The notes: generated by a model not told the origin, from the letters alone. Positions 20,037 to 41,470 are shown, counted from the first letter of the stretch. The stretch is DNA of 56,309 nucleotides from Stramenopiles sp. TOSAG23-2 (GCA_900128395.1 LT649258.1:1-56309); one strand, 5' to 3'. Numbers and translations are program-made.

Positions 20037-20151
20037 TGATTTAATTCTACGTCTTTATTTTGATTTCGGTTTTGTTAATTCGTGAAATTGTTCTGTATTT
20101 TTACGTTGAAATTCTAATATTGTTTCTTTATCTAATGTTGATAAAAAGTCT

Positions 20152-22177: not shown

Positions 22178-22783
22178 CTAAGTATTGATTATTGATTAGT
22201 GCAGTGCACCTTTTTTTTACATGCACACAGCAGGGGCAACATATCGACAATCGACACTGAATTAACATCCTCATTGAATTAGAATGCTATTTACAACTTC
22301 ATTATTCCATTTGTTAATTGCTGATTAATAAATAGTAAATCGACACTGAATTAACATCCTCATTGAATTAGAATGCTATTTACAACTTCATTATTCCATT
22401 TGTTAATTGCTGATTAATAAATAGTAATAAATACCCGTATTGAGACCTCATAAATGCTGTGAAAAATACTAATATTGATATGCAATGTAGGATATGTGGA
22501 GCATTGGTTTTTAAGACAAAGATATCCATCTGCTTCGAGATCCAAACGGTTTATCCATACGAACCAAGAAGAGGTGTAGAGCAACAACTCTAGAAAAAGA
22601 TATAAGATATTATATATATTTACAAAAGTAAAAGTAAAGTCTGTAAAGTTTCAACAGACTTTAGACTTTCTTCTTAGTTATATAGAGTTACATATAGATA
22701 TATTCTACTGTATAAATATATATAAAATTATTAATTACGTATTACTGCGCATTTCTTTCTGGCTCAGAAAATTATATATAAAC

Positions 22784-25700
22784 ATGAGTAATTTTGATGA
22801 TAACTCTTTGATGACAAATATGCCAAACGTTATAAATAGATTACATACAAATGGTGCTACTATGCGCTCAACAACGAAGAGAAAAGCACCACAAAGAAAA
22901 GAAAAAGCACAAAATAAAAGATCAAAATTATTGGAGCTTCGATTATTGGTGCTAAAAGAACTAGAAGAAGAGAAAGAACGTCAACGTCGTCAGAAAGAAC
23001 TAGATGAAGAGAAAGAACGTCAACGTCGTCAGAAAGAACTAGATGAACGGGAAGAACGTCAACGTCGTCAGAAAGAACTAGAAGAAGAGAAAGAATGTCA
23101 ACGTCGTCAGAAAGAACTAGAAGAAGAGAAAGAACGTCAACGTCGTCAGAAAGAACTAGAAGAAGAGAAAGAACGTCAACGTCGTCAGAAAGAACTAGAA
23201 GAAGAGAAAGAACGTCAACGTCGTCAGAAAGAACTAGAAGAAGAGAAAGAACGTCAACGTCGTCAGAAAGAACTAGAAGAAGAGAAAGAAAGGAAAAGAA
23301 GTACTTTCGTAAATTTAAAAAGCAAATACAAAAAAAAATTTCCAGGCAGAATACCATTTATAATTGCCTGCGAGAAAGGTGCTTTCGTGGATGTCAAATC
23401 ATTTCTATCATATTACAATGGAAGTGGTAATAACACGATGACTATAAATGATATGGTAAACCAAAGAGGTAAAGATAGCAATGAGGATGAAAGTACACCG
23501 TTAATGGCAGCTGCAAAGAACGAACATTTCAATATTGTTGAATACTTAATACAAGAGGGTAAGGCTTCTCCTGTTATTACAGATAGTAATGGATCGATGC
23601 CGTTGCATTTAGCAGCACGTTTTAACGAAAAAAGTACTAGGACCGTGGAAATATTATTGCGCGAAATGAACCGTAATAGTATCAACCTGACAAATGATTG
23701 TGGACACACATCATTGTGTTCAGCATATTGTAACAGAAGTACAATTAAAGAAGACATTGTTGCTCTGATAAAGGCAAAGGATGGACGTGTAATTGTTGCC
23801 CGTATAAATGAAGCGTTAAAAAATTCATTCGCAGAAGGAACGCCTTTAGTATGTGCATGTGAAAAAGGACGTTTGGAGGATGTAAAATTATTGCTTACAG
23901 GACATGATGAAAATTGTGGTAGTAATGGTAATAATAATAATATGACATTGAAAGAATATGTGAATCAAGTCGGTAAAGATAGTAATGGCAAAGAATCAAG
24001 AAGGTAAAGATAGTGATGGCAATGGAAGTACACCTTTAATGGCAGCTATTACAAACAAGCATACAGACATAAAAATGTATTTAGTTGAGCATGGTGCTGA
24101 TTTACACAAAGCATACAAAGAAGAATTTCCAGACGGTACGCCATTAGTATGCGCATGTGAACAAGGGCGTTTGGAGGATGTAAAATTATTGCTTACTAGT
24201 CAGGTTAAAAATGATAATATGACATTGAAAGAATACGTGAATCAAGAAGGTAAAGATAGTGATGGCAAAGAATCAAGTCGGTAAAGATAGTAATGGTGAT
24301 GGAAGTACACCTTTAGTGGCAGCTGCAGAGAACAATCATCAAGAGATAGTTGATTATTTGGTAGATATTGCATATGCTGATGATACTGAGATATTTAGGA
24401 AATATAAGAAAGAATTTCCAGACGGTACGCCATTAGTATGCGCATGTGAAAAAGGACTTTTGGAGGATGTAAAATTATTGCTTACAGGACATGATGGAAA
24501 TGGTGGTAGTAATGGTAATAATAATAATATGACATTGAAAGAATACGTGAATCAAGAAGGTAAAGATAGTGATGGCAATGGAAGTACACCTTTAGTGGCA
24601 GCTGCAGAGAACGATCATCAAGATATAGTTGATTATTTGGTAGATATTGCATATGCTGATGATACTGAGATATTTAGGAAATATAAGAAAGAATTTCCAC
24701 GCGGTACGCTATTAGTATGCGCATGTCAACAAGGACGTTTGGAGGATGTAAAAGTGTTTCTTACTAGCCAGGTTAAAAATGATAATATGGCATTGAAAGA
24801 ATATGTGAATCAAGAAGGTAAAGATCGTTATGGTTATGATCGTACACCTTTAATGATAGCAACAGACCAAGCCATTATTGATTATTTATTCTCCATTTTG
24901 CTAGATGGTGTAACACTTAATACAAACACATTGACTGATGTGTATATGAAAGCAATTCCAAAAGGTACGCCAATAGTATGTGCATGTGAAAAAGGACGTT
25001 TGGAGGATGTAAAATTATTGATTACAGGGCGTAATAATGATGTGAATGGTAGTAATGGTAATAATAATAATATGACATCGAAAGAATACGTGAATCAAGA
25101 GGGAAAAAATAGTTATGGTAATGAGTGTACACCTTTAATGATAGCAACAGACCAAGCCATTATTGATTATTTATTCTCCATTTTGCTAGATGGTGTAACA
25201 CTTAATACAAACACATTGACTGATGTGTATATGAAAGCAATTCCAAAAGGTACGCCAATAGTATGTGCATGCGAAAAAGGACGTTTGGAGGATGTGAAAT
25301 TATTGATTACAGGGCGTAATAATGATGTGAATGGTAGTAATGGTAATAATAATAATATGACATCGAAAGAATACGTGAATCAAGAGGGAAAAAATAGTTA
25401 TGGTAATGAGTGTACACCTTTAATGATAGCAACAGACCAAGCCATTATTGATTATTTATTCTCCATTTTGCTAGATGGTGTAACACTTAATACAAACACA
25501 TTGACTGATGTGTATATGAAAGCAATTCCAAAAGGTACGCCAATAGTATGTGCATGCGAAAAAGGACGTTTGGAGGATGTGAAATTATTGATTACAGGGC
25601 GTAATAATGATGTGAATGGTAGTAATGGTAATAATAATAATATGACATTGAAAGAATACGTGAATCAAGTCGGTAAAGCTAGCTCTAGTAGTGTTTTTGA

Positions 25701-26190
25701 ATATACACCTTTTTTTGAATATACACCTTTAATGATAGCTGCAAAGAACGAACATTTCCAAATAGTTCAATATTTAATTGAACAAGGTGAAGCTGATCCT
25801 AATATTGCATGTAGTGATGGAAGGACACCTTTAATGCTGGCTGCAAGAGAAGAACATTTCCAAATAGTTAAATATTTGATTGAACAAGGTGAAGCTGATC
25901 CTAATATTGCACATAGTAATGGAGTGAATGCATTGCATTTAGCAGCAGCAAATAACAAAAAGAATACTGTGTTGGTTGAGTTGTTATTAACTAATATGCC
26001 TCTTAATAGCATAAATAAGAAGACCAGGTGGTACGGGGGACGCACTCCCCTGGACTTGGCATATCATCGTAATGATAGTCCACTTCGCCAAGAGATCATT
26101 GCACTTTTACGTTCAAAAGGTGGAAAAGCAAATTATGTTGATGAAAATGGTAGAATTGTAGGAAGAGGTAATGGTGATTTAAATCATTGA
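22784..26190 (+). CDS. Modular ankyrin-repeat protein, family 1 locus A (two frameshifts at 31-nt duplications)
   Basis: Repeated EFPxGTPLVCACEKGRLEDVKLL..NNNNMTLKEYVNQxGK..TPLMxAA..HFQIVxYLIEQGEADPNIA..NALHLAA..TPLD modules across ORFs 22784-24007, 23985-24284 and 24259-26190. Confidence 0.85.
22955..23293 (+). repeat. 39-nt coding tandem repeat (KELEEEKERQRRQ) x8.7
   Basis: aaagaactagaagaagagaaagaacgtcaacgtcgtcag units; charged single-helix/coiled-coil type. Confidence 0.95.
24844..25670 (+). repeat. 285-nt (95-aa) near-perfect coding repeat x~3
   Basis: Units start at 24844, 25129 and 25414 (TPLMIATDQAIIDYLFSILLDG...). Confidence 0.93.
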
Positions 26191-26384
26191 AAGAATGGAG
26201 ATTGAAAAAGTCAAAGTGTAATATTTCTTTCTCGATCAATCGGGTTAGAAAGTCGTGTTAATTGTAGAGAAGTGTGGTTGTAATATTTGTAGTTATTAAA
26301 GTTTTATATTTTTTAACAATTAGTCGCGTTTATTTTGCAATATTATTTATTTCATAATTTATTTTAATAAAAATAGTCAGTATT

Positions 26385-26850
26385 CCTATAGGGGTTCAAA
26401 AACCTGGGTCGCAGTATTCACCTGCTATAGTGGTATATACACTACATAGCATTGTAATGGTATTACTATATTATATTTATTTACTAGGTACATACCATCG
26501 GCTACTGTCATTAATTTTATCAGTCCATTTTCGCAATTGGATGCATTTAAACATAAATTATTAGATATTCATATATGCATTTTGGCTACAACACAAAAGT
26601 TGCGAAAATCTCCTGCATTTCAATTCTGGGTTCTTGCCGTGAATCACTTCGTACAAGATAGACATACCATTGTATATATTTGATAGAATATATTACAGGT
26701 ATTTACGTGAATCACTTCGTACTTATTGCTATACTAAATACCTGTAATATATCTATCAAATATAAACAATGGTATGTCTATATTGTATGCTATATCCATT
26801 GTATATATAGCAGGTGAATACTGTGACCCAGGTTTTTGAACCCCTATAGG
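26385..26850. mobile_element. MITE-like element with 45-nt TIRs and nested hairpin
   Basis: cctataggggttcaaaaacctgggtcgcagtattcacctgctata (26385-26429) matches the reverse complement of 26806-26850 with 1 mismatch. An inner inverted pair lies at ~26657-26705/26735-26781. Confidence 0.7.
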
Positions 26851-27060
26851 TAAAAAAAAAAGTAGTTTATTATACATATAAATAGCGTAGGAGACGCATA
26901 GTAAGAGAATAGCATTAGGAAGAGTAGAGGAAACTGTCAATCAGAGATTCGTTAAGATGTGGTGCCCAGAAGAGGTGCATAATGAATGAATACACATACA
27001 TATATATATTAATATATGTATGTGTAAGAGGATGTGGAGAGAGATATAAATATATAGAAG

Positions 27061-27594
27061 TACAGAGTGTATACGAGATACGAGAAGTAATAATATCATA
27101 ACTATATAGCATAAACAATCACTATACTATTCACATACCAAGACGAATATCTAGACAAATACTGGGGGCCGTATCAAATATCGGAATATATTATCTACTA
27201 TTACGATTAACAGAGGCGAGGAAAATAAAACCAAAAGATAAGCAGTTAATAAACTCATACTTCAGAGATTTCTATAAAGATAGAACTGAACATAATAAAG
27301 CGCTGGAAAGAGCAAGACAAAGAAGAGCAGAACAAGAAGCGTTAGGAAGACGAAATAGTACACGAATTAGAAAGGAACCAGAAAGATTAATAGAAGTAAA
27401 CTCAATAAATTTAACAGCAGAAGCGTTGATACGAGATAGTGAAGAATTAGAATATTATTATCATAATCATGACGTAGGACAAATAGTAAACGATACAGAG
27501 TGTATACGAGATACGAGAAGTAATAATATCATAACTATATAGCGTAAACAATCACTATACTATTCACATACCAAGACGAATATCTAGACAAATA
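27061..27594 (+). mobile_element. Retroelement-like remnant flanked by ~100-nt direct repeats
   Basis: Direct repeats at 27061-27160 and 27494-27594. An ATG-less open frame (~27105-27540) encodes RRNSTRIRKEPERL and uses A-rich AGA/ATA/GTA codons unlike the host genes. Confidence 0.4.
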
Positions 27595-27908
27595 AGTTTG
27601 TTGTTGTTGTTGTTTGTTTGACTAACAACTAAAAAAAATGACTATATAATAATAATAATAATAAATGGTAATACATCATAGTAAATTATTGAAAACAAGA
27701 TATATATATATATATAAACACTTGTTGACTATATAATAATATTAATAAATGGTAATACATCATAGTAAATTATTGAAAACAAGATATATATATATATATA
27801 AACACTTGTAAAACAATACAAGATACCACAATATAAGAATATTTATTCACATTGAATCGTGTCTATATAGGAAACAATTGTAACAATAATAGTGTAGGAA
27901 ATTTAAAA

Positions 27909-28403
27909 ATGAAAATACAACAACATTTTAAAATGTATATAATTTTATTATTTCTATCAACAATATTGATAGATGTAAGCATGGCTAATAATAATACAAT
28001 AACGACAACTAATTCACCACCAGTACCAGTAACGACAACAAAATCGCCACCTGTGCCAGTAACAACAACATCATCGCCAACGCCGCCACCACCACCACCA
28101 TCCCCAGTAACTACCAAAGCTCCGCCAATCCCTCCTCCTCCGTCTTCGTCAACAACTACAAAAGCAAACATACCAAATCCTCATGATAAAAACAAACCTC
28201 ATGATAAAAACAAAACTACTGGAGGTGCATTAGGTGCTGGATGGATCGTCATGATTACTATATTATCAATCATAGTACTTGGTGCTGGTACTTATGGTGG
28301 TGTGATATATTATCGCCGAAATCACCAAGGTGTCGCAAGGCATTCATTATCATTTTTTCAAGATGATGACAGTTCCAATGGTAGGGAATATTCGTTAATT
28401 TAA
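27909..28403 (+). CDS. Type I membrane protein with mucin-like P/T stalk
   Basis: Signal-like MYIILLFLSTILIDVSMA, repeated TTxSPPVPV, TM GWIVMITILSIIVLGAGTYGGVIYY, then RR and a tail ending EYSLI. Confidence 0.8.
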   Translation: MKIQQHFKMYIILLFLSTILIDVSMANNNTITTTNSPPVPVTTTKSPPVPVTTTSSPTPPPPPPSPVTTKAPPIPPPPSSSTTTKANIPNPHDKNKPHDKNKTTGGALGAGWIVMITILSIIVLGAGTYGGVIYYRRNHQGVARHSLSFFQDDDSSNGREYSLI

Positions 28404-29632
28404 TAAAATAGAATAGGTTCATCCCTCAACAAGTTTTAGAAAATAAAAACAAAAACAGAAAATTTGACACACAGGGTGAAAGCAGTTGAAGTGAAAAGTG
28501 GAACGGAAGTGATTGCCGGTTGTATTGGAGAGAGAGAGGGAGAGATTCGTTAATTTAATAAAATAGAATAGGTTCATCCCTCAACAAGTTTTAGAAAATA
28601 AAAACAAAAACAGAAAATTTGACACACAGGGTGAAAGCAGTTGAAGTGAAAAGTGGAACGGAAGTGATTGCCGGTTGTATTGGAGAGAGAGAGGGAGAGA
28701 GAGTCGTGGTATTGGATAAAAATACGAAGTTTGTATATTTTCTTAAAAACACACATTAAAAGTTTTAAAACACGTTTTTTTTACAGATTCCATCTCAATT
28801 AGCAGACTAGAGTTTCTTTGATGAACCTCCCACATATGCGGTCTAGAGTTCGTGTGTAATGTGCGTGTACCATTTCTCACAATTACAACAAGCATTTTGA
28901 TATTATATAACTCCATATAATCTACCTACACTACCTTTGTTACCCGCCCCCCCCCTGACTATCACACATGTTTTACAACAAAATTTTTAATTTTTTATTT
29001 TTGATTAATAATACGCTTCATATTTATATCATTAAATATTAATTCCCCATTTCATCATTCTTCTATATAAGAAAAGCAAAACGAGTATATTACTCGTCCT
29101 CTGTTCAAAAACCTTTTCAATCTCAATTAGCAGACTAGAGTTTCTTTGATGAACCTCCCACATATGCGGTCTAGTTCGTGTGTAATGCGTGTGTGTACCA
29201 TTCTCACAATTTACAACAACAAACATCTTGATATTATATAACTCCATATAATCTACCTACACTACCTTTGTTACCCGCCTCCCCCCTGACTATCACACAT
29301 TTTTTACAACAAAATTTATTTTTCATTTTTGATTAATAATACGCTTCATATTTATATCATTAATATTAATTCCCCATTTCATCATTCTTCTATATATAAG
29401 AAAAGCAAAACGAGTATATTACTCGTCCTCTGTTCAAAAATCTTTTCCTACATATTACATTTTTCAAATATGTTTAAACAACACACATCCGTAAGTTCCA
29501 TCCACTTCATCCTATATAAGAAAAGCAAAACGAGTATATTACTCGTCCTCTGTTCAAAAACCTTTTCCTACATATTACATTTTTCAAATATGTTTAAACA
29601 ACACACATCCGTAAGTTCCATCCACTTCATCC
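28390..29632. repeat. Cluster of tandem duplications
   Basis: ~155-nt perfect pair (28390/28545), ~330-nt diverged pair (~28790/29120) and ~120-nt pair (~29392/29513). Confidence 0.85.
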
Positions 29633-29637
29633 ATTAC

Positions 29638-30492
29638 TCATTGCCAACTTTTACCCCAACGATGTACAGCAAATGTATTTTCATTGTAATATTTATTAAT
29701 TTCATCATCCCCATGATCGATGATATTAAAATCAATATGATTTGGTATTGGGTAAAAATATTCTTTTGGTAATATCAAAATATTTTTATATTTCATTAAT
29801 AATTTCAATGTAGGATGTAACAATACATTGGTTATAAATAATGGACCAGTACGTTCAATTGTTGACATTGGTGAAGATTGTACCGGTATGTTCATCATTT
29901 TTGCTACTAATACTTTTGGATCAGGTTGTATGGTTTTCATTAATTGTAAGACAATTGGATGTGTTGGTATACATCCAATCAATGCATTGTTTAATTCCAT
30001 TTTATTTGTAGAGACATTTGATTCACCAATGAATAAATCAATACCAGTATTACAAAAGGATTCAAATGGTTTGATACATTTAAAATCAACATCTACATAA
30101 ATACCACCATAACGATATAATAATTCTAAGCGTAAAATATCACTTTTCTCACCATAATTCGTAGCTAAATCAAATGCTTTATGATTCATTAATTCTTTTT
30201 CTTGTCGTAACGTTTGAACACGTTCATCATTCCATAAAATAATTTCAAAGGTTGGATTTAATAATTCCCATGTTTTATAAAAACGTTCATAATATTTTGC
30301 AGTTGGAAATGGTGAACCAAGCCAAATAAAATGAATAATCTTCGGGATTGATACGGTACTACTTAAACATTGATTCATTTGAAATTGTTGATATCGTTGT
30401 TGTATAATAGTTAACATATTATCTTGTTGTTCGTTGGATGCAATGGAAGTTGGTTGCGTCGTTGTTGAGGATGATGTGGTAATTGATGCCAT
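29638..30492 (-). CDS. GT32-type (DXD sugar-binding) glycosyltransferase
   Basis: IPKIIHFIWLG, SDILRLELLYRYGGIYVDVDF, NNALIG, ERTGP, FAVHRWGKSW. ATG at 30492. Confidence 0.9.
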   Translation of the reverse strand: MASITTSSSTTTQPTSIASNEQQDNMLTIIQQRYQQFQMNQCLSSTVSIPKIIHFIWLGSPFPTAKYYERFYKTWELLNPTFEIILWNDERVQTLRQEKELMNHKAFDLATNYGEKSDILRLELLYRYGGIYVDVDFKCIKPFESFCNTGIDLFIGESNVSTNKMELNNALIGCIPTHPIVLQLMKTIQPDPKVLVAKMMNIPVQSSPMSTIERTGPLFITNVLLHPTLKLLMKYKNILILPKEYFYPIPNHIDFNIIDHGDDEINKYYNENTFAVHRWGKSWQ

Positions 30493-30815
30493 GTTTGTGT
30501 GTGATAGAAATATATAAATATAATGGTTATATATAGCAAAAGGTTTGAAACGTACAAAAACTGTCCGCACCACAGGCACACGTGAATGGACTTCGAATAA
30601 TTGTTTTCTTTGGGATTTTACGATGCAATGATTGTTATATTTTATTATATTTTTTCTATATTCTTCTTAATACTTCAATATTTTCATACTTATATTTTCT
30701 ATTTGGTGCTTTGTTTTAATATATATATATACTTTCAACAATTAACACGTGTTATTATTGAAATTATATTGTTGTTGTAATTTGTATGTATTATGTTGCT
30801 GTTGTGAAAACGATT

Positions 30816-30948
30816 ATCGTTCATACTTTTTTTAAATTTGTATGTTAAGTATATATATTGGTATACTAAGATTCATATTTGATTTGATAGAATTATTAGT
30901 ATACCAATATATATACTTAATATATATTTATTAAAAAAAGTGACGATT
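30816..30948. mobile_element. MITE-like palindrome, family A copy 2
   Basis: catactttttt..ttaagtatatatattggtatactaa / 26-nt loop / ttagtataccaatatatatacttaa..aaaaaaagt; same architecture as 21663-21844. Confidence 0.65.
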
Positions 30949-31427
30949 ATTTTCATTATTTCCTTAAATAATGTAAGAAGTCTCTACAATCTACAATTCT
31001 ACCGTTATAATTCCCATATTTGGAATTTGAGTGGCGAATTTTAATGCCTATTTTAAAAAAAGACGGCCTATTTAGATGCTATTGATTTACATGGGACGCA
31101 CTATGAAGGAAATTTTCAGATCAAAGATCCACAACAATAAAGTATGGCCAAAATGGTGTGGTCCGACGTCCGACGGTCTGACATATAGCTAATATATATA
31201 TGTACATAAGATAGCTTACATGTATAATATATTATACATGTACATATCCGCGCATACATGTAAAAGGGATTCAATCTAGTATCATCATTCGTATTTCTCT
31301 TACTGTACATTAACATATCTAAAAGTGATTTCTGTTGAATTGAATTTATTACGTTTGTGGTGTAGTAATTTAGTATTATATTTTATTTATAGCAACAACC
31401 ATTTTGTATATTTGAAACAGAACAAAG

Positions 31428-32906: not shown

Positions 32907-33400
32907 TATCTGACATGGAGCCACCTGATCCTGATGATACCATTGATGTAAACTGTAAACACACAAGTTAATATTGCGCATCAGAGTCAAGTTTAGCTTT
33001 TTAGTATACCAAAAATATATATATTTGATACAGGGGGAGCACTATTAGATTAATCAAAAAAATCAAAAATGGCCGCCAATGGATGAAATCTATGGATGAA
33101 CATCTCTTTACCTCTTTACCTCATCGGTAATTTCTGTTTACGGAAATTATCGACACACGACACATCTTGGTGACTTGTGGAGATAGATAATTAAATATTT
33201 AATATTGGCTCAGTCACTGTATTCTTTTTGAGAGTCAGGAATTGTCATGGGTAGGGGATAAAAAATTGGAAAATTATAAATTATGGAATTATTAAAATAC
33301 GAAATACGCGTACACGCGTACATATTTTTTTTACTCTAGAGATATTTTAACCTTTATAAACAATCAATTATTACTCGCTCCTCGCTCCATATATTTTTTT

Positions 33401-36387
33401 TCAATTCTTAGCACGTCTTCTTGCTTGTTGTCGTCTACGTATAAATTTTGTTGCTTCTAATATTACATCTTGTGCACCCGTTGATGGTGGTGTATCACTT
33501 TCACCACCACTATTATAATGATTATTATTATTATCATCCTCATCTTCATGACGACGATTACTATTATTATTATTATTATTCTTTTTAAAATTATTACTAT
33601 TATGTTGTGGATGATTATTTGTATTCACATTTTGTGGTAACAATGGTGGTCGTTTATGTACTTTTTGTTGTTGTATTTTTTTATTTTTTTTATTTTTCTT
33701 TATATTTTGATGATTTCCTCCTCTTCCACCTTCTTGGCGATGACGATGTTGTTGTTGTTGTTGAGGATGATCACGATTACTGCGTCCTTTACGAGAAGAT
33801 GATGATCTACTACTACTATTATGATCATTATTCATCACACGTTCAACCATTAAACGTTCTTTTTCCATCATACGATCTACTTCATCAATATCTGCATCTA
33901 ATTCAATTTCTTCACGTGTTTTATACATTGAATTATCATTATTATTATTATTATTTGCAGTATGATAATGTTGTTCATGACGATCACGTTGATCTTCACG
34001 TGAATGATGATGTTGTTCTTTACCATTATTACGATTGCTACGTCTTCGATTTCCATGGTCGTGACTATTATTATTATTGTTCTCATTCTCATTATTATTA
34101 TTATTATAAAAATGTTGTTGTTGAAATTTCATAAAATCTTCTCTTGATTTATCTTTATCTTTCATTAATTTCTTAATTTCATCTTGTAATTTAATAATTT
34201 CATTATTTTTCTCATCTACTTCTTTATTTGCTTGTTCATGCCCAGAACGTAATACACTCATTTCTTGAATTAATTTACGTGAAAACGATTTCTTTGCTTG
34301 TACCAATGCACGTTCCCCCCATTGCCTTGCTTCCTTTGCTGCACCTTCTGCATTATGTAATTGTGTCTGTGTTTGCATTAATTGATCTTTTAATACTTGA
34401 TTTTTTTGATTGGATTGTGATAATCTCATGACCGTTTTATGTTTTGCATTTAATGCTTCTGTTAAACGTGATGTAGCAACTTCAGCTTTTGCAACTAATG
34501 CAGCAACTTCTTCCCTACGTTCTTGTCGTTCCTCTTGTAATTTACGTTGCATCGCTTTGCTTTGTCTTGACATATCCCGATAATTTTCATTTTGTTCTTT
34601 AAAATTAGCTTTTTCATGTCGTAATTCACTTTCTAATTGTTTCACACGTGATTTCGTTTGTTTCAATATTTTTAATGCATCCTTTAATTCTTTTTGAATT
34701 TTAACAACATCTTCCTGTAATTGTTTTTTCACTAATTGTAACTCTTGTATTGAACTTGTTTTTTCAAAATTTTCTTGTATGATTTTATCTTTTTCACCTT
34801 CAAATTTAATTTTACTTTCATTTAATAAATTAATTTGTTTCTTTAATTCATCTTTTTCACGCCTTAATGTATTTGTTGATTGATCGTAACGTTTTATCGT
34901 ACGTGTTTTTTCATTAATTTCTTTTCTATATGATGCCATTTCCTCATTTGCAATTTTCATTTTAGATGTTAATGTTTCATTTTGTTTCTCCACACGTGCA
35001 CGTTCATATCTAGCATTACGTAATAAATCACTAACAACTTCCTTTGCTTTATTTGCTTCATTCACACGTTTACGCATGAAACTTTTCAATGTTTCTACTT
35101 CTTTTGTAGTAGATGCATTTATTGATGTTAACTCTTCATTTTTTTCATGTAATTCTTGATTAGTTTCATTTAAATTTGTTATTTTAATATTTTGCGATTC
35201 AATTTCTTGTTTTAAACGTTTTGTTGTTTCATATGCAGCTTTAATTGCATTTGAATCTGTTAATTTTTGTTGTCTACCAACGGTTTGCGATGTGAAATGT
35301 TTTACCCCTATAATTATTATTATTGTTAGTCTTATATTTGATTTTGTTGTGATGAAAATGTTATGGTTTTTATATTATGTAACTTACGACTTTTTAATAC
35401 ATTCATTTCTTTTAATAATTTTTCATTTTCTTCTTCATATTTTAAACATTTTTTATTTGCAATAATTTCTAAATCTGTTTTAATTTGTTCTGTACGCGAT
35501 GCAGTTTGATCCTTTGTTTCTTTCACTAATTGTATTGCATTGTTTGTTTTCTTTTTTTGCTCCTCTAAACGTTGTTTTAATAATTCAAATTTATCCGTCC
35601 ATGCATTTGACTGTGAATTATATTTTTTTTTCCATTTTTCAATAGTATTATTTGAATGAAATTTATTATTTTCCAATAATATTCTTAATTCATCTAATTG
35701 TTTTTCATACGATTCTTTATTTGTTTTAATTTGCGCTTCTAAATGCGTAATATGATTTAATAAATCGGAATTGGTTTTTGTACTTGTTTCCAACTGCATA
35801 TTAGCTTCATCTCTACTTTCTTTTGCTTGTATTAATGCTTCTTTCATTGTTGCTAATATTTCCAATGCTTCTTTACGTTCACGTTTTGCTTGTTCTAACA
35901 TTGTAAACCATTCTTTTAAATTATCTTTAGGTAATTCTGGCATACCTTTTGGTAATACATATGGCTTTGGTATGTGATTTGCTGTTGCAGCTGGTTTTTT
36001 CGATAATACTGCATGTACATCGATGAAGGATGAGGTTGTTTCTGGTGTTGTTTCATCTTCATCACGTTGTTTTAACTTTGTTTTTTCTTCTGATTTTTTT
36101 GCAATACGTACAAATGGTGATACAGATGTTAAACTAAATATTTTACGTTTATCGATTGGTGATGGTAATGTTAATGGGTTCACCTGGTTATTGTTGTTGT
36201 TTTCATTGTCATCGTTTTCTGGTTGTTGTTGTTGTTGTTGCTGACTGTTGTTGTTCTTGTTGTTAATATCAATATTCATATTCACTTCTACTTGTTTTAA
36301 TGTCGTTAACGGGTTTGAATAATAATCATTTCCTGTTTGTCGTTGTTGTTGCTGATTGTTGTTGTTGTTCTTCATATTCATATTCAC
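33401..36387 (-). CDS. Long coiled-coil protein, 2 exons (intron 35308-35387); 5' end uncertain
   Basis: An 80-nt intron GTAAGT..GACTAAC..TAG joins ORF 35332-36387 in frame to ORF 33401-35089. A duplicated segment (36274/36377) obscures the start. Confidence 0.8.
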
Positions 36388-36957
36388 TTCTACTTGTTTT
36401 AATGTCGTTAATGGGTTTGAATAATATGTATTTTTTCTTTTCCAGCTTTTCCTTTTCCCTTTCCCTTCCTCCCCCCCTATTATATTTTTTATTATCGATA
36501 GCTTTTCAAAGGGTTTTTTATTTTTTTATGTTTGTTTTTTTAACCGTCAATAACGTTTCGATTTCAAGAATTGGATATAGAGTTAGCAGGTGGATAGTAT
36601 TGTAGAGTATATAGCAGGTACACAGCATATGGGGATTAGTAAAACCATTTACAACACACATCCTAATATAAAAATTAGCGGCCCAGACATATGGGTTGTA
36701 CTTCTTCCTAATATCCCTCCTTGGTTCAGCAAGTGTGCCATCAAGATTAATTACCCTTCCGATCAAGTTCCCCATTAAATGTAACCTACAATGATTTAAC
36801 AACATGTCCAAGGGTTTAACTTTTTTACCAAGGTGGATAATAAATTGTACCATAAATTGTATCTCATGGCACAACTCATTATATGTGCATCTTACCGTAA
36901 CTTGTCGAAAGATTACATACAAAAATAACTGAGAGACAATATTATCTATCGGTCACA

Positions 36958-37350
36958 CTATAGTGATGTTGGGATTCTCGTACATAAAAGAGAATCATAA
37001 TGATTAAATACGGTTTCATTGATACCTTCTCCAATATGATCCAATATGATGTCAATGATTCTTACATCCCCATTGTAATGCATTATTGCCATATGAAGTG
37101 CATTGTTTTTTGAATTCATTTCACCTGTCAAGCATAGTATCGTTGCCTCCATTCTGAAGTAAAAAGTAAACCATTTCATAATTTCCGTGTTGAACGCATG
37201 ATAACAATGCAGTATAGCCAGAAAAACCTCGACCGTTTCTACCGTACAAGTCAATATCAAAGTCATTCCCCATCATGAATATACAAACATGATCCATATT
37301 TCCCATTTCTGCTGCCTTGATGAACAGTGTTGGAATTGAATTAATATCGG
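36958..37350 (-). pseudogene. Ankyrin-repeat fragment, family 2 (frameshifted)
   Basis: AAEMGNMDHV..GYTALLSCVQHGNYEMVYFLLQNGGN, then a frameshift to NNALHMAIMHYNGDVRIIDIILDH. Confidence 0.6.
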
Positions 37351-37489
37351 AATGCAATGCCCCAGAATGAAGATCATATGAGAAAGGTATGGAAAAAATC
37401 AGGATTTGTACACTTGTGTTGCCCACTTGGATTATCAAGTGTGGCACCATCACATAAAAGTTATGGAACTTGTTCATTTGAATATCGTT

Positions 37490-37821
37490 TGCAATTAAAA
37501 GTGAAAATTGGTGCAGATGCAGATGATCCAACATTTGATACTGCACTGTTAAGTTGTGTTCAACACAGAAATTATGATATGGTTGAATTTTTATTGCAAA
37601 ATGGAGCAAACCCGATACTACGCTTAACAGGTGAAATGATTTTAAAAAACAATGCGCTTCATATGGCCATAATGCATTATGATGGGGATGTAAGAATCAT
37701 TGACATGATATTGGATCATATTGGCAGAGAAGGTATCAATAAAACCATATCCAATCGTTATGGTAAACAAGCTATGCATTGGCTTACACACATTTGTCAT
37801 GAAGTTATAGTAGCGTTATAG
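37490..37821 (+). pseudogene. Ankyrin-repeat fragment, family 2 (paralogue, 5' partial)
   Basis: GADADDPTFDTALLSCVQHRNYDMVEFLLQNGANP..NNALHMAIMHYDGDVRIIDMILDH..NRYGKQAMHW; an inverted paralogue of the adjacent minus-strand fragment. Confidence 0.6.
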
Positions 37822-38065
37822 CATTAAAATAGTGTTCTTTGCAGGGTTATGATAAGTATAATTAGCAGGTACATAGGCCTAAAATAGAAGAAATTTGACG
37901 GAAAATTGACACACATTTCTGATAATAAATACACATATATATCAAATATATATACGGATTTGATCGATGGAAAGATGGAAATGTGAATGTATATATTGTA
38001 TATTGAATATATATTGTTGGTGAATCATATTTGTGTGTGGAAAGACGGCTTGGGAAAGACGACGT

Positions 38066-38128
38066 TCTCTCTGCCTCTGCCTCTGCCTCTGCCTCTCGCT
38101 CTCTCTCTCCGTGTGTGTGTGTGTGTAT
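38066..38128. repeat. Compound microsatellite (CTCTGC)n(CT)n(GT)n
   Basis: Seen directly. Confidence 0.9.
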
Positions 38129-38383
38129 AGGGTGACTCGTAGTTGTGTTTTTGTGTGATTCTCTGTCTATATTTGTATCCACGTGTTTGTGTGTGTGTGT
38201 ATTGTTTTAGTGAGTGGATCATATTGTATACGGAAAGATTAAACGATTCTATCGATCTATTTATCTCTCTTTTTGCGTGTTTAATTGAATAATTGTGTGA
38301 AGATTTGCTCTGCGTGTATTGCGTATATTGTGTGTAAGTGAACATTTCCTGTGCGTGTACATATTGTGAACATTTGCCCCAAC

Positions 38384-39196
38384 ATGTCCGACAATGAAAC
38401 AAAAGATGATAATAATAATAATAATACAGAAATAGAAATGTCATCATACATATTATGTTATAATGAATTAAATGATAAAGGTAAGACCTGGGATGAACAT
38501 TGGGTAGTAAATGAAAACCATATAGATGCAGTTGCTATGGAAGATATTGTTGAACAAGTGGAGGAAAAGTATGAATGGGAAGGTATAAACGATTCCAATA
38601 CTAATAATAACGATAATATTATTAATAAAGATATACAAATACAATATGAAACTGGCTGTACATATTATGCACAACATATTAAAGGATGTTTTTTAGTCAT
38701 ACATAATTTTGAGGATTATTTAGATGAAGATATATTTGAGGATTATTTAAAAACAGATGATAAGAAAGTAAAAGAGGACGAACAATCAAAACATGCATCC
38801 ATTTTTTTAGAAACTGGGCAGTACGTCATAGAAAAAGATGATTTAATCTTTTATACAAAAGGTATTTTCTTTTGTATTTTAGCATTATTTGTTTCGATTA
38901 TCATAATGGGTTTACTAGAAGTATTTGTTATGTTTTTCGATGATAGTATAACAGTAAAAACTGACATTCATCGTTACGATGCCAACAATCAAACGTATTT
39001 AAGAAGCAGTAATATTACAACGACAACGGATATACATTCATCATTAACAACAAGTACATCATCACCAGCATCATTAATAGCAACAACAACAAGTCCACCA
39101 CCACCAATAAATCCTCCTCCAACAACAATGACGACGACGACGTTTATGCATGATAATATTACAAACAACACATCAAATACGAGCTGGAGTCTATAA
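38384..39196 (+). CDS. Hypothetical single-pass membrane protein with T/P-rich C-terminus
   Basis: ATG at 38384 (MSDNETK), acidic N-terminal part, TM GIFFCILALFVSIIIMGLLEVFVMFF, T/P-rich tail. Confidence 0.6.
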   Translation: MSDNETKDDNNNNNTEIEMSSYILCYNELNDKGKTWDEHWVVNENHIDAVAMEDIVEQVEEKYEWEGINDSNTNNNDNIINKDIQIQYETGCTYYAQHIKGCFLVIHNFEDYLDEDIFEDYLKTDDKKVKEDEQSKHASIFLETGQYVIEKDDLIFYTKGIFFCILALFVSIIIMGLLEVFVMFFDDSITVKTDIHRYDANNQTYLRSSNITTTTDIHSSLTTSTSSPASLIATTTSPPPPINPPPTTMTTTTFMHDNITNNTSNTSWSL

Positions 39197-39883
39197 CAAA
39201 TGGGCAAATGATCAATAGGGAACCAACAAGTCAAATGTCTGTAACATGTATATCATGCATGTTGTATATTATGCGGAATGCACCATGCATGTTGTATATT
39301 ATATACGGAATGCGCAAGTGATTAATAACAACAACAAGCCAAATAACATCACCATCATCAATAATCATTATAAATACAAACACACAGTATACATTAATTA
39401 AATAAGAGCTGGAGTTTGCCTGTATAACATTAATGTATATGATGTATATATTATATATAGCGCATGCATAAATGCACAAAATTCACGCGAATCATTTGTT
39501 TTCTTTACATATAACAAATGGAAAAATCTCTTTCGTTCTTTATAAAATTTTAAGTGTGTGTCCATTTAAAATATTTTTTTATGTAAATTTTTTTTCTATG
39601 ACATAGACGTATTTTTTTTATCACATCAAAAATGATTTATTTTGAACTAAAAATTCTATTAATAACCTCTACAAGCATGGTGTGATAAAAGAGTGAGATA
39701 TAGATATAAATATAATACATCGTATAGGTTGAGGAAAAACTATCACTTCAGAATAACACCGTCTTATATTATAGTAGATATCAAATATATATATATACAC
39801 GTGCACACGACGTATACTAAAAAAATAATAAAAACAAATATTGAAATTATAAATTTAAATATTGTATATAATATTATAATATA

Positions 39884-40966
39884 ATGAATCCTGTTACTGA
39901 ATTCACAGTGAATGGCATTCTATCCTCTGGCCTTGATGATGGGTCAAAGAGACATGCATTGGAACGACTAAAGGCAATGGTAAACGTTGCACTCTCAAAT
40001 CTACACACAGAAACTCCAAAATCAAATTATGATTTCTCAACATTACCTGGTATTGATGATATTTGTGTGAAAACAATCATACCATATCTTGGTAACGATG
40101 GTCAAGCGTTAATGAATATGTTTGGAAAAACAACAAAACGATTTTTAACTGTACCGACGATACGTGATGCATATAATAGTAATATTTTGAATTGTTATAG
40201 GAATGTTTTGAATCGTTTAAACAATCGTTATAAAACTGAATTTCCAGAAGGTACGCCAATAGTATGTGCATGTCAAAAAGGACGTTTGGAGGATGTGAAA
40301 TTATTGATTACAGGGTATAATGATGTGAATGGTAGTAATGGTAATAATAATATTATGACATTGAAAGATATGGTGAGTCAATTCGGTAAAGGTATTAATG
40401 GTTATGATCGTACACCTTTAATGGCAGCTGCATTTAAAGAACATTTCCAAATAGTTAAATATTTAATTGAACAAGGTGAAGCTGATCCTAATATTGGACA
40501 AGTAGTTGCATGTGAGAAAGGACGTTTTGAGGATGTGAAATTATTGATTACAGGGTATAATGATGTGAATGGTAGTAATGGTAATAATAATATTATGACA
40601 TTGAAAGATATGGTGAGTCAATTCGGTAAAGGTATTAATGGTTATGATCGTACACCTTTAATGGCAGCTGCATTTAAAGAACATTTCCAAATAGTTAAAT
40701 ATTTAATTGAACAAGGTGAAGCTGATCCTAATATTGGACGTAGTGGTGGATATAATGCATTACATTATGCAGCATATTATAACAAAAAGGATACGAAGTT
40801 GATTGAGTTCTTATTAACTAATATGTCTCTTACTAGCATTAATAAGAAGGCCATGTTCGGGGACACTCCCCTGGACTTTGCATATGATCATAATGATAGT
40901 CCAATTAAACAAAAGATCATTGATCTTATACGTTCAAAAGGTGGAAAACGTCAAGGAGAGTTATGA
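39884..40966 (+). CDS. F-box-like + ankyrin-repeat protein, family 1 locus B
   Basis: DFSTLPGIDDICVKTIIPYLG..LMNMFGKTTKRF (F-box-like), then the same EFPEGTPIVCAC..EQGEADPNI..NALHYAA..TPLD modules as locus A. Internal 240-nt duplication at ~40261/40501. Confidence 0.8.
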   Translation: MNPVTEFTVNGILSSGLDDGSKRHALERLKAMVNVALSNLHTETPKSNYDFSTLPGIDDICVKTIIPYLGNDGQALMNMFGKTTKRFLTVPTIRDAYNSNILNCYRNVLNRLNNRYKTEFPEGTPIVCACQKGRLEDVKLLITGYNDVNGSNGNNNIMTLKDMVSQFGKGINGYDRTPLMAAAFKEHFQIVKYLIEQGEADPNIGQVVACEKGRFEDVKLLITGYNDVNGSNGNNNIMTLKDMVSQFGKGINGYDRTPLMAAAFKEHFQIVKYLIEQGEADPNIGRSGGYNALHYAAYYNKKDTKLIEFLLTNMSLTSINKKAMFGDTPLDFAYDHNDSPIKQKIIDLIRSKGGKRQGEL

Positions 40967-41060
40967 TGCAAATGGTAGACATTTAGGAAAAGGTAATGGT
41001 GATTTGAATGATTTACACAATGTTATCAAATCGTAATAGTGTGAATTATATGATGAAATA

Positions 41061-41470
41061 AACATTTCCAAATAGTTAAATATTTAATTGAACAAGGTGA
41101 AGCTGATCCTAATATTGGACGTAGTGGTGGATGGAATGCATTACATTGGGCAGCACGTTATAACAGAACGAATACTGAGTTGATTGAATTGTTATTAACT
41201 CATATGACTCTTGATAGCATTAATAAGAAGGACGGGTTGAGATTCACTCCCCTGGACTGTGCATATGATTATAATCATAGTCCGCTTCGCCAAGAGATCA
41301 TTGCACTTTTACGTTCAAAAGGTGGAAAAGCAAATTGTCATGATGCAAATGGTAGAAATGTAGGACCAGGTAATGGTGATTCAGTATTTGATAGATTGTA
41401 TGATACAAGATCATACACGGGTGTATATGCAGAACGTTTCAAAGGAGCGGATGGAAGGATCAATTTATAA
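41061..41470 (+). pseudogene. Orphan C-terminal ankyrin cassette of family 1 ending in a p25alpha-like motif
   Basis: Starts abruptly at HFQIVKYLIEQGEADPNIGRSGG (71 nt identical to 40680-40750), has no ATG, and ends SVFDRLYDTRSYTGVYAERFKGADGRINL. Confidence 0.7.

What the first reader, a model, noticed from the sequence alone, without database searches (positions are those of the whole stretch)
22784..41470. DARPin-like ankyrin repertoire: invariant framework with hypervariable binding-surface codons
Seen: modules at 22.8-26.2 kb and 39.9-41.5 kb share near-identical DNA, but differ sharply at the loops before TPL/NAL (GKDSDGNGS, GKDRYGYDR, GKNSYGNEC, GKGINGYDR; NIAHSNGV, NIGRSGGY, NIGRSGGW; KKTRWYGGR, KKAMFGD, KKDGLRF) and around helix 1 (HLAAANN, HYAAYYN, HWAARYN). 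A hand count over 66 aligned codons (40751-40948 vs 41132-41329) gives 24 amino-acid-changing and 3 synonymous codon differences. Established: ankyrin beta-hairpin and helix-1 residues form the ligand surface, the positions randomised in DARPins. Inference: a diversifying recognition or immune-like receptor family, e.g. against viruses or parasites, in a protist.
Basis: partly seen in the sequence, partly recalled or inferred. Interest (0 to 1): 0.8.

Follow-up and report, generated by a model that had tools for sequence, protein, structure and literature searches.

The report
Hypervariable ankyrin binder family in protist
An uncultured marine protist carries dozens of ankyrin-repeat genes with an almost fixed scaffold and about twenty fast-changing residues on the ligand-binding face, like a natural library of designed binders, which suggests a repertoire for recognising many different protein targets.

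Summary
The core observation holds. The quoted loops exist and the 24:3 codon count is exact. "Near-identical DNA" is overstated: the two loci are 68-86% identical and the longest exact shared word is 52 nt. The 24:3 count alone is not significant (binomial p=0.17; whole-module dN/dS 1.2-1.7).

The family-wide signal is strong. Relatives number 379 protein hits and 150 confirmed metagenome stretches. In 96 codon-aligned modules, 18 positions chosen beforehand (the DARPin-randomised positions 2, 3, 5, 13, 14, 33 of three repeats) give omega 7.6 against omega=1 (2dlnL=132). Independent pairs give dN/dS 4.6 (3.9-5.5). The remaining codons give 0.8-0.9. Hypervariable sites lie in the beta-hairpin/loop and on one face of helix 1. 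They are rich in Asp, Asn, Tyr, Arg and Trp. One assembly set holds 39 modules with 39 different hypervariable strings.

No NOD domain is present. The N-terminal heads are unknown domains; an F-box-like motif is only a lead. An immune-like role is inference. The repeat order of gene A is unreliable: two frame-breaking 31-bp duplications and many exact tandem duplications suggest assembly artefacts. This is a new variant of a known kind.

The parts
22784..24007 (+). Gene A, first reading frame (407 aa): N-terminal coiled-coil repeats, a diverged 4-repeat ankyrin domain, then the first family-type repeat. The frame ends inside a hypervariable loop.
22955..23290 (+). 39-bp x 8.6 tandem repeat that encodes KELEEEKERQRRQ units in gene A
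23962..24022 (+). First imperfect 31-bp tandem duplication. It shifts the frame of gene A within loop codons (NQVGKDSNGK / NQEGKDSDGN).
   Evidence: Not bridged by any listed independent contig.
24239..24300 (+). Second imperfect 31-bp duplication, with the two variants in reciprocal order. It shifts the frame again.
24262..26190 (+). Gene A, third reading frame (642 aa from the ATG): about 7 R1-R2 repeat units, then the C-terminal hypervariable module C1 and its tail
24774..25669 (+). 285-bp x 3.1 tandem array (97% matches). The units share the same loop, GKNSYGNEC.
25822..26127 (+). Module C1 (RTPLMLAA...SKGGK): repeats R2-R4 with hypervariable loop and helix-1 codons
   Evidence: Contigs of runs X1/X2 match 25785-26005 and 26107-26187 without differences.
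39884..40966 (+). Gene B (360 aa): N-terminal head, two R1-R2 units, module C2, short tail KRQGEL
   Evidence: AF2 model mean pLDDT 84.
39884..40240 (+). Gene B N-terminal head (type b): helical, no Pfam family. Conserved core DFSxLPGIDDICVKTIIPYLxNDxQALxNMFxxTTKRFL.
40267..40739 (+). 240-bp x 2.0 tandem duplication (98%) within gene B. Both copies carry the loop GKGINGYDR.
40622..40948 (+). Module C2, the 109-codon reference for all site numbering. Hypervariable codons are ref 4, 6, 8, 9, 10, 15, 18, 19 (40631-40678), 40, 42, 44, 49, 52, 53 (40739-40780) and 77, 78, 79, 81, 86, 89, 90, 92 (40850-40897).
41057..41470 (+). Fragment C3: a 5'-truncated module that starts within R2 helix 2, directly after a stop codon and without a start codon. 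It is a likely pseudogene piece or an unrecognised exon. The module itself spans 41063-41329.
41378..41467 (+). p25-alpha-like C-terminal tail of C3 (VFDRLYDTRSYTGVYAERFKG...)
   Evidence: PF05517, E 0.0098, below the curated cut-off

Best explanation
The two loci belong to a large, germline-encoded family of intracellular ankyrin-repeat proteins. Each member has a variable N-terminal head of about 70-160 residues, one or more R1-R2 repeat units, and a C-terminal three-repeat module. The scaffold of that module is almost invariant. About 22 of its 109 residues are hypervariable. Those residues lie in the beta-hairpin or loop before helix 1 and on one face of helix 1 (canonical positions 1, 3, 5, 10, 13, 14), so together they would form the concave ligand-binding face. 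Every paralogue therefore presents a different binding surface on the same fold. Diversity arose by gene and repeat duplication followed by positive diversifying selection on the surface codons. Purifying selection, and possibly gene conversion, keeps the framework alike. Shown here: the fold, the positions, the selection signal, the family size and the inheritance of the variants. Inferred: the family works as a repertoire of recognition modules for many fast-changing protein ligands, such as viral, parasite or other non-self proteins, and the N-terminal head supplies the output. One candidate output is an F-box-like adaptor that would pass bound targets to a ubiquitin ligase.
For: Fold. Pfam ankyrin families hit at E down to 1e-63. 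The AF2 model of gene B has mean pLDDT 84, and above 90 over the C-terminal module. The best Foldseek matches are DARPins, FEM1B, EHMT1 and gankyrin.

Family size. There are 379 protein hits among 961 candidates. Of 318 pattern matches in metagenome contigs, 150 were confirmed by tblastn and 80 loci were kept. Thirty-three of those 80 loci come from one accession set, which yields 39 modules with 39 distinct hypervariable strings. Identity within that set is 16% at hypervariable sites and 83% in the framework.

Bimodal variability. Over 79 protein modules, entropy is below 0.5 bit in the framework and 3-3.6 bits at the variable columns.

Selection. The class was fixed before looking at the data: 18 codons, the DARPin-randomised positions recalled from Binz et al. 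2003. Forty-eight independent nearest-neighbour pairs give dN/dS 4.6 (bootstrap 3.9-5.5) against pooled dS, and 2.75 (2.3-3.4) against the class's own dS. The rest give 0.87. GY94+F3X4 on a fixed tree of 96 modules gives omega 7.6 against omega=1, 2dlnL=132, p=1.5e-30; the rest give 0.81. Parsimony counts find 22 of 109 sites with dN above 2.8 times the global dS, and 20 sites with uncorrected binomial p<0.05. Core framework sites are below 0.5; exposed outer-face and loop sites are about 0.5-2.4.

Placement. By DSSP on the model, hypervariable sites fall in the hairpin or loop and at helix-1 positions i, i+3, i+4. No site in helix 2 reaches the hypervariable cut-off.

Composition. Hypervariable sites are rich in Asp, Asn, Tyr, Arg and Trp. 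Trp is 7.9% there and 0% in the framework; Tyr is 11% against 2.4%.

Inheritance. Two near-identical pairs from different contigs (L001/L002, L053/L061) have 0 hypervariable changes beside 1-3 framework changes.

Not consensus errors. Contigs of runs X1 and X2 match the C1 module exactly, and the pattern recurs in at least 9 accession sets.
Against: No ligand, localisation or expression was measured.

The selection tests use a single FastTree topology for paralogues that may recombine, and the hypervariable sites are saturated. Their pN stays at 0.52-0.58 whatever the framework pS, so omega values are rough. The periodic class gave an implausible omega of 25.

Low framework dS may partly reflect gene conversion or constraint on the DNA, which would inflate ratios that use pooled dS. 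The estimates that use the class's own dS (2.75 and 7.6) do not depend on this.

Only tblastn segments without stops were used, so broken copies are under-represented.

The output domain is unknown. F-box-like reaches only E 0.12-0.15, in 2 of 33 members.

In the window itself, gene A is frame-broken twice and C3 has no start codon, so at most gene B is clearly intact here.
Confidence: 0.6

Rival explanations
1. Offensive rather than defensive repertoire. The same hypervariable binders are effectors aimed at proteins of prey, hosts or competitors (as in the ankyrin effectors of Wolbachia or Legionella), or they serve mating or allorecognition, rather than sensing invaders.
For: The selection pattern is equally expected for effectors in an arms race or for self/non-self loci. 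Fungal HIC-repeat NLRs act in allorecognition (PMC4986451, passages). The family sits in a probable marine protist.
Against: The N-termini read show no hydrophobic signal-like start (by eye, no predictor was run). Several heads begin with a basic PAKRxK stretch, which looks more like a nuclear signal. No secretion or delivery system was seen. Nothing here separates this reading from the defensive one.
Confidence: 0.2
2. No adaptive diversification. The variable positions are merely unconstrained surface residues that drift to saturation, while gene conversion or strong constraint keeps the framework, synonymous sites included, alike and so inflates dN/dS.
For: Hypervariable pN is flat at 0.52-0.58 across all framework pS bins, as saturation would give. 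Framework pS is low (mean near 0.1). Whole-module omega is only 1.2-1.7 in the window and 1.29 family-wide.
Against: Within the 18 pre-chosen codons alone, non-synonymous changes exceed the neutral expectation set by the same codons' synonymous changes: omega 2.75 by counting and 7.6 by likelihood, 2dlnL=132. Drift gives at most 1. Outer-helix and loop positions, exposed in canonical ankyrin repeats, show only 2-3 alternative residues and omega of about 0.5-2.4. Trp and Tyr enrichment in a 31% GC genome is not what drift predicts.
Confidence: 0.08
3. Programmed diversification. The variable codons are rewritten by a dedicated mechanism, such as cassette conversion from pseudogene donors or targeted hypermutation, rather than by ordinary mutation plus selection.
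For: A start-less module fragment (C3) lies right behind gene B. Two 31-bp junction duplications lie exactly in loop codons of gene A. Paralogues with almost no framework synonymous change differ at nearly all variable codons.
Against: Near-identical copies on different contigs keep identical variable codons (0 changes in L001/L002 and L053/L061). Changes are not restricted to adenines: 445 of 1102 differences do not involve A. The 31-bp duplications occur only in this window, 2 places, and in none of 80 related loci. The window also holds many exact tandem duplications that look like assembly artefacts.
Confidence: 0.07
4. Artefact. The variation comes from sequencing, amplification or assembly errors in a repetitive family.
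For: The window has 11 exact two-copy tandem duplications of 67-155 bp, some of which break ORFs. It also has an N gap and two frame-breaking 31-bp duplications. Depth in runs X1 and X2 is very uneven.
Against: The same positions vary in 101 distinct modules from at least 9 accession sets and in 120 listed database proteins. Framework codons between the variable ones are error-free. Independent contigs reproduce C1 exactly. Errors would not respect codon positions or avoid stop codons (0 stops in 84 full-length segments).
Confidence: 0.02

Closest known systems
Ankyrin (also TPR and WD) repeat domains with high internal conservation in fungal NOD-like receptors (Podospora HNWD/NLR genes; Dyrka et al. 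2014, PMC4986451, passages read)
   Same: The ankyrin scaffold is nearly invariant. [quoted passage not shown] Repeat numbers vary, and heads are exchanged between members.
   Different: No NACHT or NB-ARC domain was found here (0 of 120 and 0 of 19 precomputed Pfam lists). The proteins are short (200-400 aa). Most of the variation is between paralogues that hold one three-repeat module, not between many near-identical repeats inside one gene. The heads are unknown domains. The host is a marine protist.
DARPins (designed ankyrin repeat proteins; randomised positions recalled from Binz et al. 2003, not read here)
   Same: A consensus-like scaffold carries diversity at positions 3, 5, 13 and 14 of each repeat. 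DARPin structures are the top Foldseek matches. Tyr, Trp, Arg and Asp are frequent at the variable sites.
   Different: This family is natural. Positions 2 and 33 are mostly conserved, while positions 1, 10 and 16 also vary. Loop lengths vary. R1 carries a long Asn-rich insertion.
Expanded ankyrin family of Bathycoccus prasinos (149 copies; PMC3491373, passages read; supplement Figure S12 not seen)
   Same: It is a marine picoeukaryote family with C-terminal ankyrin repeats, an N-terminal part without database hits, tandem duplicates and no assigned function.
   Different: Homology to the present family was not tested. That paper reports no hypervariable positions or selection analysis in the passages read. 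The window's GC content is 31%. An automatic Atlas lead to Chlorophyta clusters scored only 0.85-0.86.
Expanded F-box and MATH-BTB ubiquitin-ligase adaptor families under positive selection in nematodes and plants (Thomas 2006, recalled, not read), and poxvirus ankyrin/F-box host-range proteins (PMC11074647, search listing only)
   Same: The proposed logic is the same: a constant adaptor motif joined to a fast-evolving substrate-binding domain, in large tandem families. The heads here carry an LPxxDIxxxIIxYL...TKxF motif that resembles an F-box.
   Different: The F-box assignment is not established here. In poxviruses the F-box-like part is C-terminal, whereas here the head is N-terminal.
Variable lymphocyte receptors of jawless fish and plant NLR LRR domains (established knowledge; PMC8226289, search listing only)
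   Same: A solenoid repeat scaffold carries hypervariable residues on the concave face and serves as a recognition repertoire.
   Different: Those use LRR, not ankyrin. VLRs are assembled somatically. Here the variants are germline and inherited.

Membership tests
Ankyrin repeat superfamily | Pfam Ank/Ank_2 match above the curated cut-off | tested here: met
   Five of 5 window ORFs: Ank_2 43-212 bits against a cut-off of 27.3. All 33 of 33 family ORFs.
Ankyrin repeat superfamily | Helix-loop-helix-hairpin solenoid fold | tested here: met
   The AF2 model has pLDDT above 90 over the module, with paired helices and hairpins. Foldseek matches DARPins and FEM1B at E 1e-7 to 1e-6.
Fungal-type NLR/STAND receptors with HIC ankyrin repeats | Central NOD module (NACHT or NB-ARC) | tested here: not met
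   Neither family appears in the precomputed Pfam lists of 120 of 120 listed hits or 19 of 19 longer forms, nor for the window ORFs. In one search only 25 of 50 families were shown, none of them a NOD family.
Fungal-type NLR/STAND receptors with HIC ankyrin repeats | Repeats more than 85% identical over at least 100 aa within a protein | tested here: met
   Gene A has 285 bp x 3.1 at 97%. Gene B has 240 bp x 2 at 98%. Assembly artefact is not excluded.
Fungal-type NLR/STAND receptors with HIC ankyrin repeats | Positive selection at concave-face codons | tested here: met
   (omega 2.75-7.6 at the pre-chosen positions).
F-box proteins (SCF substrate receptors) | F-box or F-box-like Pfam match above the gathering score | tested here: not met
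   PF12937 scores at most 12.3 bits against a cut-off of 24.3, with E 0.12-0.15, in 2 of 33 family ORFs and in P0102. There were 0 hits in 9 head relatives. The window head has no family at E up to 10.
F-box proteins (SCF substrate receptors) | Three-helix F-box fold | tested here: inconclusive
   The head model has pLDDT 76.6, with short helices at 57-68 and 73-83 and a long helix at 91-119. Foldseek found nothing at E of 0.001 or better. VIA-align's best Z was 6.4, a generic helical match, and no F-box protein is in the 50 rows shown.
F-box proteins (SCF substrate receptors) | Binding to Skp1 | not testable with these tools
Diversity-generating retroelement targets | Variation confined to adenine positions of a template repeat | tested here: not met
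   At hypervariable codons, 445 of 1102 nucleotide differences do not involve A (GT 250, CG 111, CT 84).
Diversity-generating retroelement targets | Adjacent reverse transcriptase and template repeat | not tested
   No search for a reverse transcriptase was run.
DARPin-like variability pattern | Variation at positions 2, 3, 5, 13, 14, 33 and a constant rest | tested here: inconclusive
   Positions 3, 5, 13 and 14 are hypervariable in all three repeats. Positions 2 and 33 are not in R3, and position 33 is not in R4. Positions 1 and 10 are hypervariable as well.

The most novel reading that the evidence does not exclude
A unicellular marine eukaryote keeps an innate, germline repertoire of dozens of natural DARPin-like binders. 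Their interchangeable N-terminal heads, some acting as divergent F-box adaptors, would hand bound foreign proteins (giant-virus, parasite or prey-derived) to the ubiquitin system. That would be a NOD-independent, ankyrin-based recognition arm of protist immunity, and it would also be a natural source of pre-selected binding scaffolds.
Probability: 0.2. Interest if true: 0.9.

Novelty: new variant of a known kind. Interest (0 to 1): 0.72.

Why it matters
Receptor families built on a repeat scaffold with a hypervariable concave face are known in animals, plants and fungi, but are hardly described in free-living protists. Here the pattern is unusually clean: 83% identity in the framework against 16% at the variable sites. 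It is coupled to unknown head domains rather than to NOD modules. The family occurs in uncultured marine plankton, where defence against viruses and parasites is poorly understood. It gives concrete genes for asking how unicellular predators or algae recognise non-self. It also offers a natural test of the design rules behind DARPins. Four full-text searches found no paper that describes this family. Supplements were closed and subscription journals are not covered.

Tried and rejected
Whole genome: none is held for this window, so paralogues were collected from public proteins and metagenome contigs instead.

Earlier findings of this scan: nothing by place or by sequence; one unrelated phage note by words.

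PHI-type recombination test on 162 informative sites of 96 modules: no signal (observed 1.085, permuted mean 1.059, p=0.88). Saturated sites make this test weak, so it neither shows nor excludes gene conversion.

Reads and contigs: Logan contigs of 4 runs are too fragmented in the repeats. No listed contig bridges either 31-bp duplication or the tandem arrays, so these stay unverified. Depth is a sum over paralogues and cannot give copy number.

F-box idea for the heads:
- Pfam is sub-threshold.
- A PDB sequence profile search with the type-c head alignment gave nothing (best E 0.16, a histone).
- hhalign links head types a and c (E 5e-5 over the LP...IL..LD.KS motif). Types b and c match only at the extreme N-terminus. 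Type b does not match d/e/f.
- A search of 1.8 billion cluster representatives with the gene B head found only 16 relatives.
- In the Atlas, an F-box cluster is rank 4 at 0.80, a level that shuffled sequences often reach.
- Fold searches showed no F-box protein among the hits.
The idea is kept as a lead only.

Viral origin or viral homologues: no relative in IMG/VR with the two peptide patterns used.

Naming the relatives: a cluster look-up returned no organism names. This was not pursued further.

My first idea that gene B carries a frameshift after SKGGK is rejected. Many relatives end the same way (SKGGKRG...), although the tail of the other subfamily is still readable in the +1 frame.

Binning pairs by framework pS selects on noise in the lowest bin. 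It is therefore used only to show that hypervariable divergence is flat, not to estimate omega.

Full report
CONTEXT. The window is AT-rich (27-38% GC in 2-kb windows) and has one N gap at 3755-4165. It carries ordinary eukaryotic genes: ribosomal protein uS7, a PH-domain MAP-kinase-like kinase, a tubulin-tyrosine-ligase-family protein, queuine tRNA-ribosyltransferase, a WD40 protein, prefoldin and a TBC RabGAP. No whole genome is held for it. The finding's span, 22784-41470, is not one element. It covers two loci with family genes, 22.8-26.2 kb and 39.9-41.5 kb. Unrelated genes lie between them, among them a glycosyltransferase, a multi-pass membrane protein and coiled-coil proteins, plus a different, inverted pair of ankyrin ORFs at 36996-37762.

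THE OBSERVATION. The quoted strings are all there. The hand count is exact: 24 replacement and 3 silent codon differences over 66 codons. Two points need correction.

- The DNA is not near-identical. The three C-terminal modules (C1 25855-26127, C2 40682-40948, C3 41063-41329) are 84-86% identical. blastn between the loci gives 68-85%, with a longest exact word of 52 nt. Only framework blocks are identical.
- 24:3 is close to the neutral expectation, because about 80% of sites are non-synonymous (binomial p=0.17). Nei-Gojobori dN/dS for whole modules is 1.2-1.7.

The distribution of the changes is what departs from chance. In the window alone, codons at canonical ankyrin positions 1, 3, 5, 10, 13, 14 differ in 12/12, 12/12 and 8/12 cases. 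Other codons differ in 16-19 of 77 cases (Fisher p 1e-7 to 0.006).

THE FAMILY. A search with gene B found 379 proteins among 961 candidates. Many are 60-80% identical, and they come from marine metagenome or transcript catalogues and from unnamed eukaryotic assemblies. A scan of metagenome contigs gave 318 pattern matches. Of these, 150 were confirmed by tblastn and 80 loci were kept. By accession prefix, 33, 17 and 9 of the 80 come from three sets, 9 from one JGI project and 12 from other assemblies. Many loci hold two or three family genes in tandem. Runs that hold parts of gene A are three small runs of one study, which may be the source, and many marine metagenomes.

Over 79 protein modules the column entropy is bimodal: below 0.5 bit for the scaffold and 3-3.6 bits for about 20 columns. 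Within the largest accession set, 39 modules have 39 different hypervariable strings. Mean pairwise identity is 16% at those sites and 83% elsewhere.

SELECTION.
- Data set. From the 80 loci and the window I took every tblastn segment that covers the 109-residue reference module (window 40622-40948). That gave 102 segments, or 101 after removing one identical duplicate. I dropped five divergent rows before all counts (WIN_23468, L009_1536, L017_2242, L023_300, L025_2686), which left 96. Segments with stops would not have entered, and none of 84 full-length segments had one. The set is therefore biased towards intact modules.
- Pre-chosen class. To avoid circularity, the test class was fixed beforehand. 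It consists of the DARPin-randomised positions 2, 3, 5, 13, 14, 33 (recalled from Binz et al. 2003), placed by the T/N-P/A-L anchor in each of three repeats, 18 codons in all.
- Counting. Forty-eight phylogenetically independent nearest-neighbour pairs give dN/dS 4.6 (bootstrap 3.9-5.5) against pooled dS, and 2.75 (2.3-3.4) against the class's own dS. The other 91 codons give 0.87.
- Likelihood. A GY94+F3X4 fit on a fixed FastTree topology gives omega 7.6 for the class. Against omega=1, 2dlnL=132 and p=1.5e-30. The rest give 0.81 and all codons together 1.29.
- Site by site. Parsimony counts single out reference positions 4, 6, 8, 9, 10, 15, 18, 19 / 40, 42, 44, 49, 52, 53 / 77, 78, 79, 81, 86, 89, 90, 92. 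These are canonical positions 1, 3, 5, 10, 13, 14 in each repeat, plus extra loop residues in R2, position 2 in R4 and position 16 in R4. Their dN is 2.9-7.5 times the global dS. Core scaffold sites are below 0.5; exposed outer-face and loop sites are about 0.5-2.4.

CAVEATS ON THE SELECTION TESTS. One tree was used for paralogues that may recombine. The variable sites are saturated: pN is 0.52-0.58 at every level of framework divergence. The periodic class therefore gave an unreliable omega of 25. Low framework dS could partly come from gene conversion. A PHI-type test found no signal (p=0.88), but it is weak here.

STRUCTURE AND CHEMISTRY. The AF2 model of gene B has mean pLDDT 84, and above 90 over the last 100 residues. 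It shows hairpins followed by helix pairs. With reference position p equal to residue 246+p, the hypervariable sites fall in the hairpin or loop before helix 1 and at helix-1 positions i, i+3, i+4. No helix-2 site reaches the hypervariable cut-off. Foldseek's best matches are DARPins and natural ankyrin domains such as FEM1B, EHMT1 and gankyrin. The variable sites are enriched in Asp, Asn, Tyr, Arg and Trp (Trp 7.9% against 0%, Tyr 11% against 2.4%). This composition is typical of protein-binding hot spots and is notable in a 31% GC genome.

GERMLINE OR PROGRAMMED. Two near-identical pairs on different contigs carry identical variable codons beside 1-3 framework replacements (L001/L002, L053/L061). 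The variants are therefore inherited. Differences are not adenine-specific. I see no need for a dedicated diversification mechanism. The start-less fragment C3 behind gene B and the loop-located 31-bp duplications keep a small probability for cassette-like exchange.

ARCHITECTURE AND LIKELY MECHANISM. A typical member is 250-400 aa and consists of:
- a head;
- a helix ending in YKxEFPxGTP;
- R1 (VCACEKGRFEDVKLLI) with an Asn-rich insertion;
- R2-R4, which carry the variable sites;
- one of two tails, ...SKGGKRG or ...SKGGKANxxDxNGxxVGxGNGDLND.

Heads fall into at least six sequence types. Types a and c are related through a shared LPxG...IL..LD.KS..S motif (hhalign E 5e-5). The gene B head (type b) has only 16 relatives among 1.8 billion cluster representatives. 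Other members carry coiled coils (gene A), MORN repeats, ubiquitin, zf-MYND, or, in one long and possibly fused model, kinase plus TIR_2.

The head motif resembles an F-box to the eye (LPxxDIxxxIIxYL......L......TKxF). The objective tests do not support membership. Pfam F-box-like reaches only E 0.12-0.15, in 2 of 33 members. The Atlas lead is at chance level. Fold searches with the head model (pLDDT 76.6) showed no F-box protein among the hits.

My best reading is therefore a repertoire of intracellular binders whose output is set by the head. A ubiquitin-adaptor role is one candidate. I put about 0.9 on diversifying selection on the binding face, about 0.45 on recognition of non-self or other fast-evolving ligands, and about 0.25 on an F-box-like output.

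COMPARISON WITH WHAT IS KNOWN. The nearest described phenomenon is the ankyrin, TPR and WD repeat domains with high internal conservation in fungal NOD-like receptors. There, positively selected sites also map to the inner helices and the hairpin of the concave face (PMC4986451, passages). The present family shares that logic but fails the defining NOD feature. It is also organised differently, with many short paralogues rather than long arrays. Bathycoccus has a 149-copy family with C-terminal ankyrin repeats and an unknown N-terminus in tandem arrays (PMC3491373, passages; a later paper links ankyrin gene content to cold clades, PMC11409870, passages). Homology to it was not tested, and the passages read report no hypervariability. 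Four full-text searches found no description of this family. The papers on marine heterotrophic flagellates listed have zero occurrences of 'ankyrin'. Supplements could not be opened.

RELIABILITY OF THE WINDOW'S GENE MODELS.
- Gene A is read in three frames because of two imperfect 31-bp tandem duplications at 23962-24022 and 24239-24300. Each lies in loop codons and each is followed by an in-frame ATG. The related protein P0001 reads through the equivalent places without them. The 31-nt spacing occurs in none of the 80 related loci. No listed contig bridges the duplications.
- The window also holds 11 exact two-copy tandem duplications of 67-155 bp, some of which break ORFs, for example 47037-47325. 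That looks like an assembly artefact.
- The number and order of repeats in gene A, and perhaps the 240-bp duplication in gene B, should therefore not be trusted.
- C3 starts right after a stop codon, inside a repeat, and has no start codon. Its framework omega against C2 is about 1.2-1.3, which fits a decaying fragment.
- None of this affects the family-level result.

VERDICT. It is a new variant of a known kind.

Noticed in passing
window 12908-13165, 18078-18209, 18339-18647, 18938-19224, 20051-20244, 22249-22427, 27649-27809, 28383-28700, 29393-29632, 47037-47325, 48023-48296: Eleven two-copy tandem duplications of 67-155 bp at 98-100% identity. Some lie in coding sequence. The one at 12908-13165 repeats 43 residues of a transporter. 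The one at 47037-47325 splits one gene into ORFs 46686-47252 and 47186-48151, which share a peptide. They look like unmerged overlaps from assembly rather than biology.
   Followed up: partly
window 23962-24022 and 24239-24300: Two imperfect 31-bp duplications in hypervariable-loop codons of gene A carry the two sequence variants in reciprocal order. They are joined at a shared GAATCAA(G) word, and each creates an in-frame ATG. They occur in this window only (2 places; none in 80 related loci). They may be real unequal exchange between repeats, amplification chimeras or misjoins.
   Followed up: partly
window 41378-41467: The tail of fragment C3 resembles the C-terminus of p25-alpha/TPPP proteins (PF05517, E 0.0098). 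The common family tail ...ANxxDxNGxxVGxGNGD may derive from such a gene.
   Followed up: no
window 40949-41036: Gene B ends KRQGEL*, as many relatives do. The longer tail of the other subfamily (YDANGRHLGKGNGDLND) is still readable in the +1 frame. The two tail types therefore seem to differ by a frameshift.
   Followed up: partly
window 36996-37762: An inverted repeat (arms of 112, 74 and 36 nt, 81-92% complementary) holds two diverged head-to-head copies of a different ankyrin ORF (TALLSCVQHGNYEMVYFLLQNG / TALLSCVQHRNYDMVEFLLQNG).
   Followed up: partly
related modules from loci L001-L080: Replacement divergence at the 18 periodic sites is the same (pN 0.52-0.58) for pairs with almost no framework synonymous change as for pairs with pS 0.25. 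The framework clock and the variable sites are decoupled. This points to concerted evolution of the scaffold or to very fast early diversification after duplication.
   Followed up: partly
protein P0142 (1666 aa): A long relative combines a family-type ankyrin module (residues 77-179) with a protein kinase (1001-1254) and a TIR_2 domain (1277-1361). It may be a fused gene prediction. If it is real, it links the module to an immune-type signalling domain.
   Followed up: partly
window 22955-23290 and 44343-44728: Coding tandem repeats: 39 bp x 8.6 (KELEEEKERQRRQ) at the start of gene A, and 72 bp x 5.3 that encodes an acidic Lys/Glu/Asp-rich repeat in the ORF at 43870-45507.
   Followed up: no
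heads of family types b and c: Many heads start MASLT(I/T)NPPPAKR(L/Q)K/R, a basic stretch that looks like a nuclear localisation signal. It is shared between otherwise unrelated head types (hhalign E 4e-6 over 19 columns).
   Followed up: no
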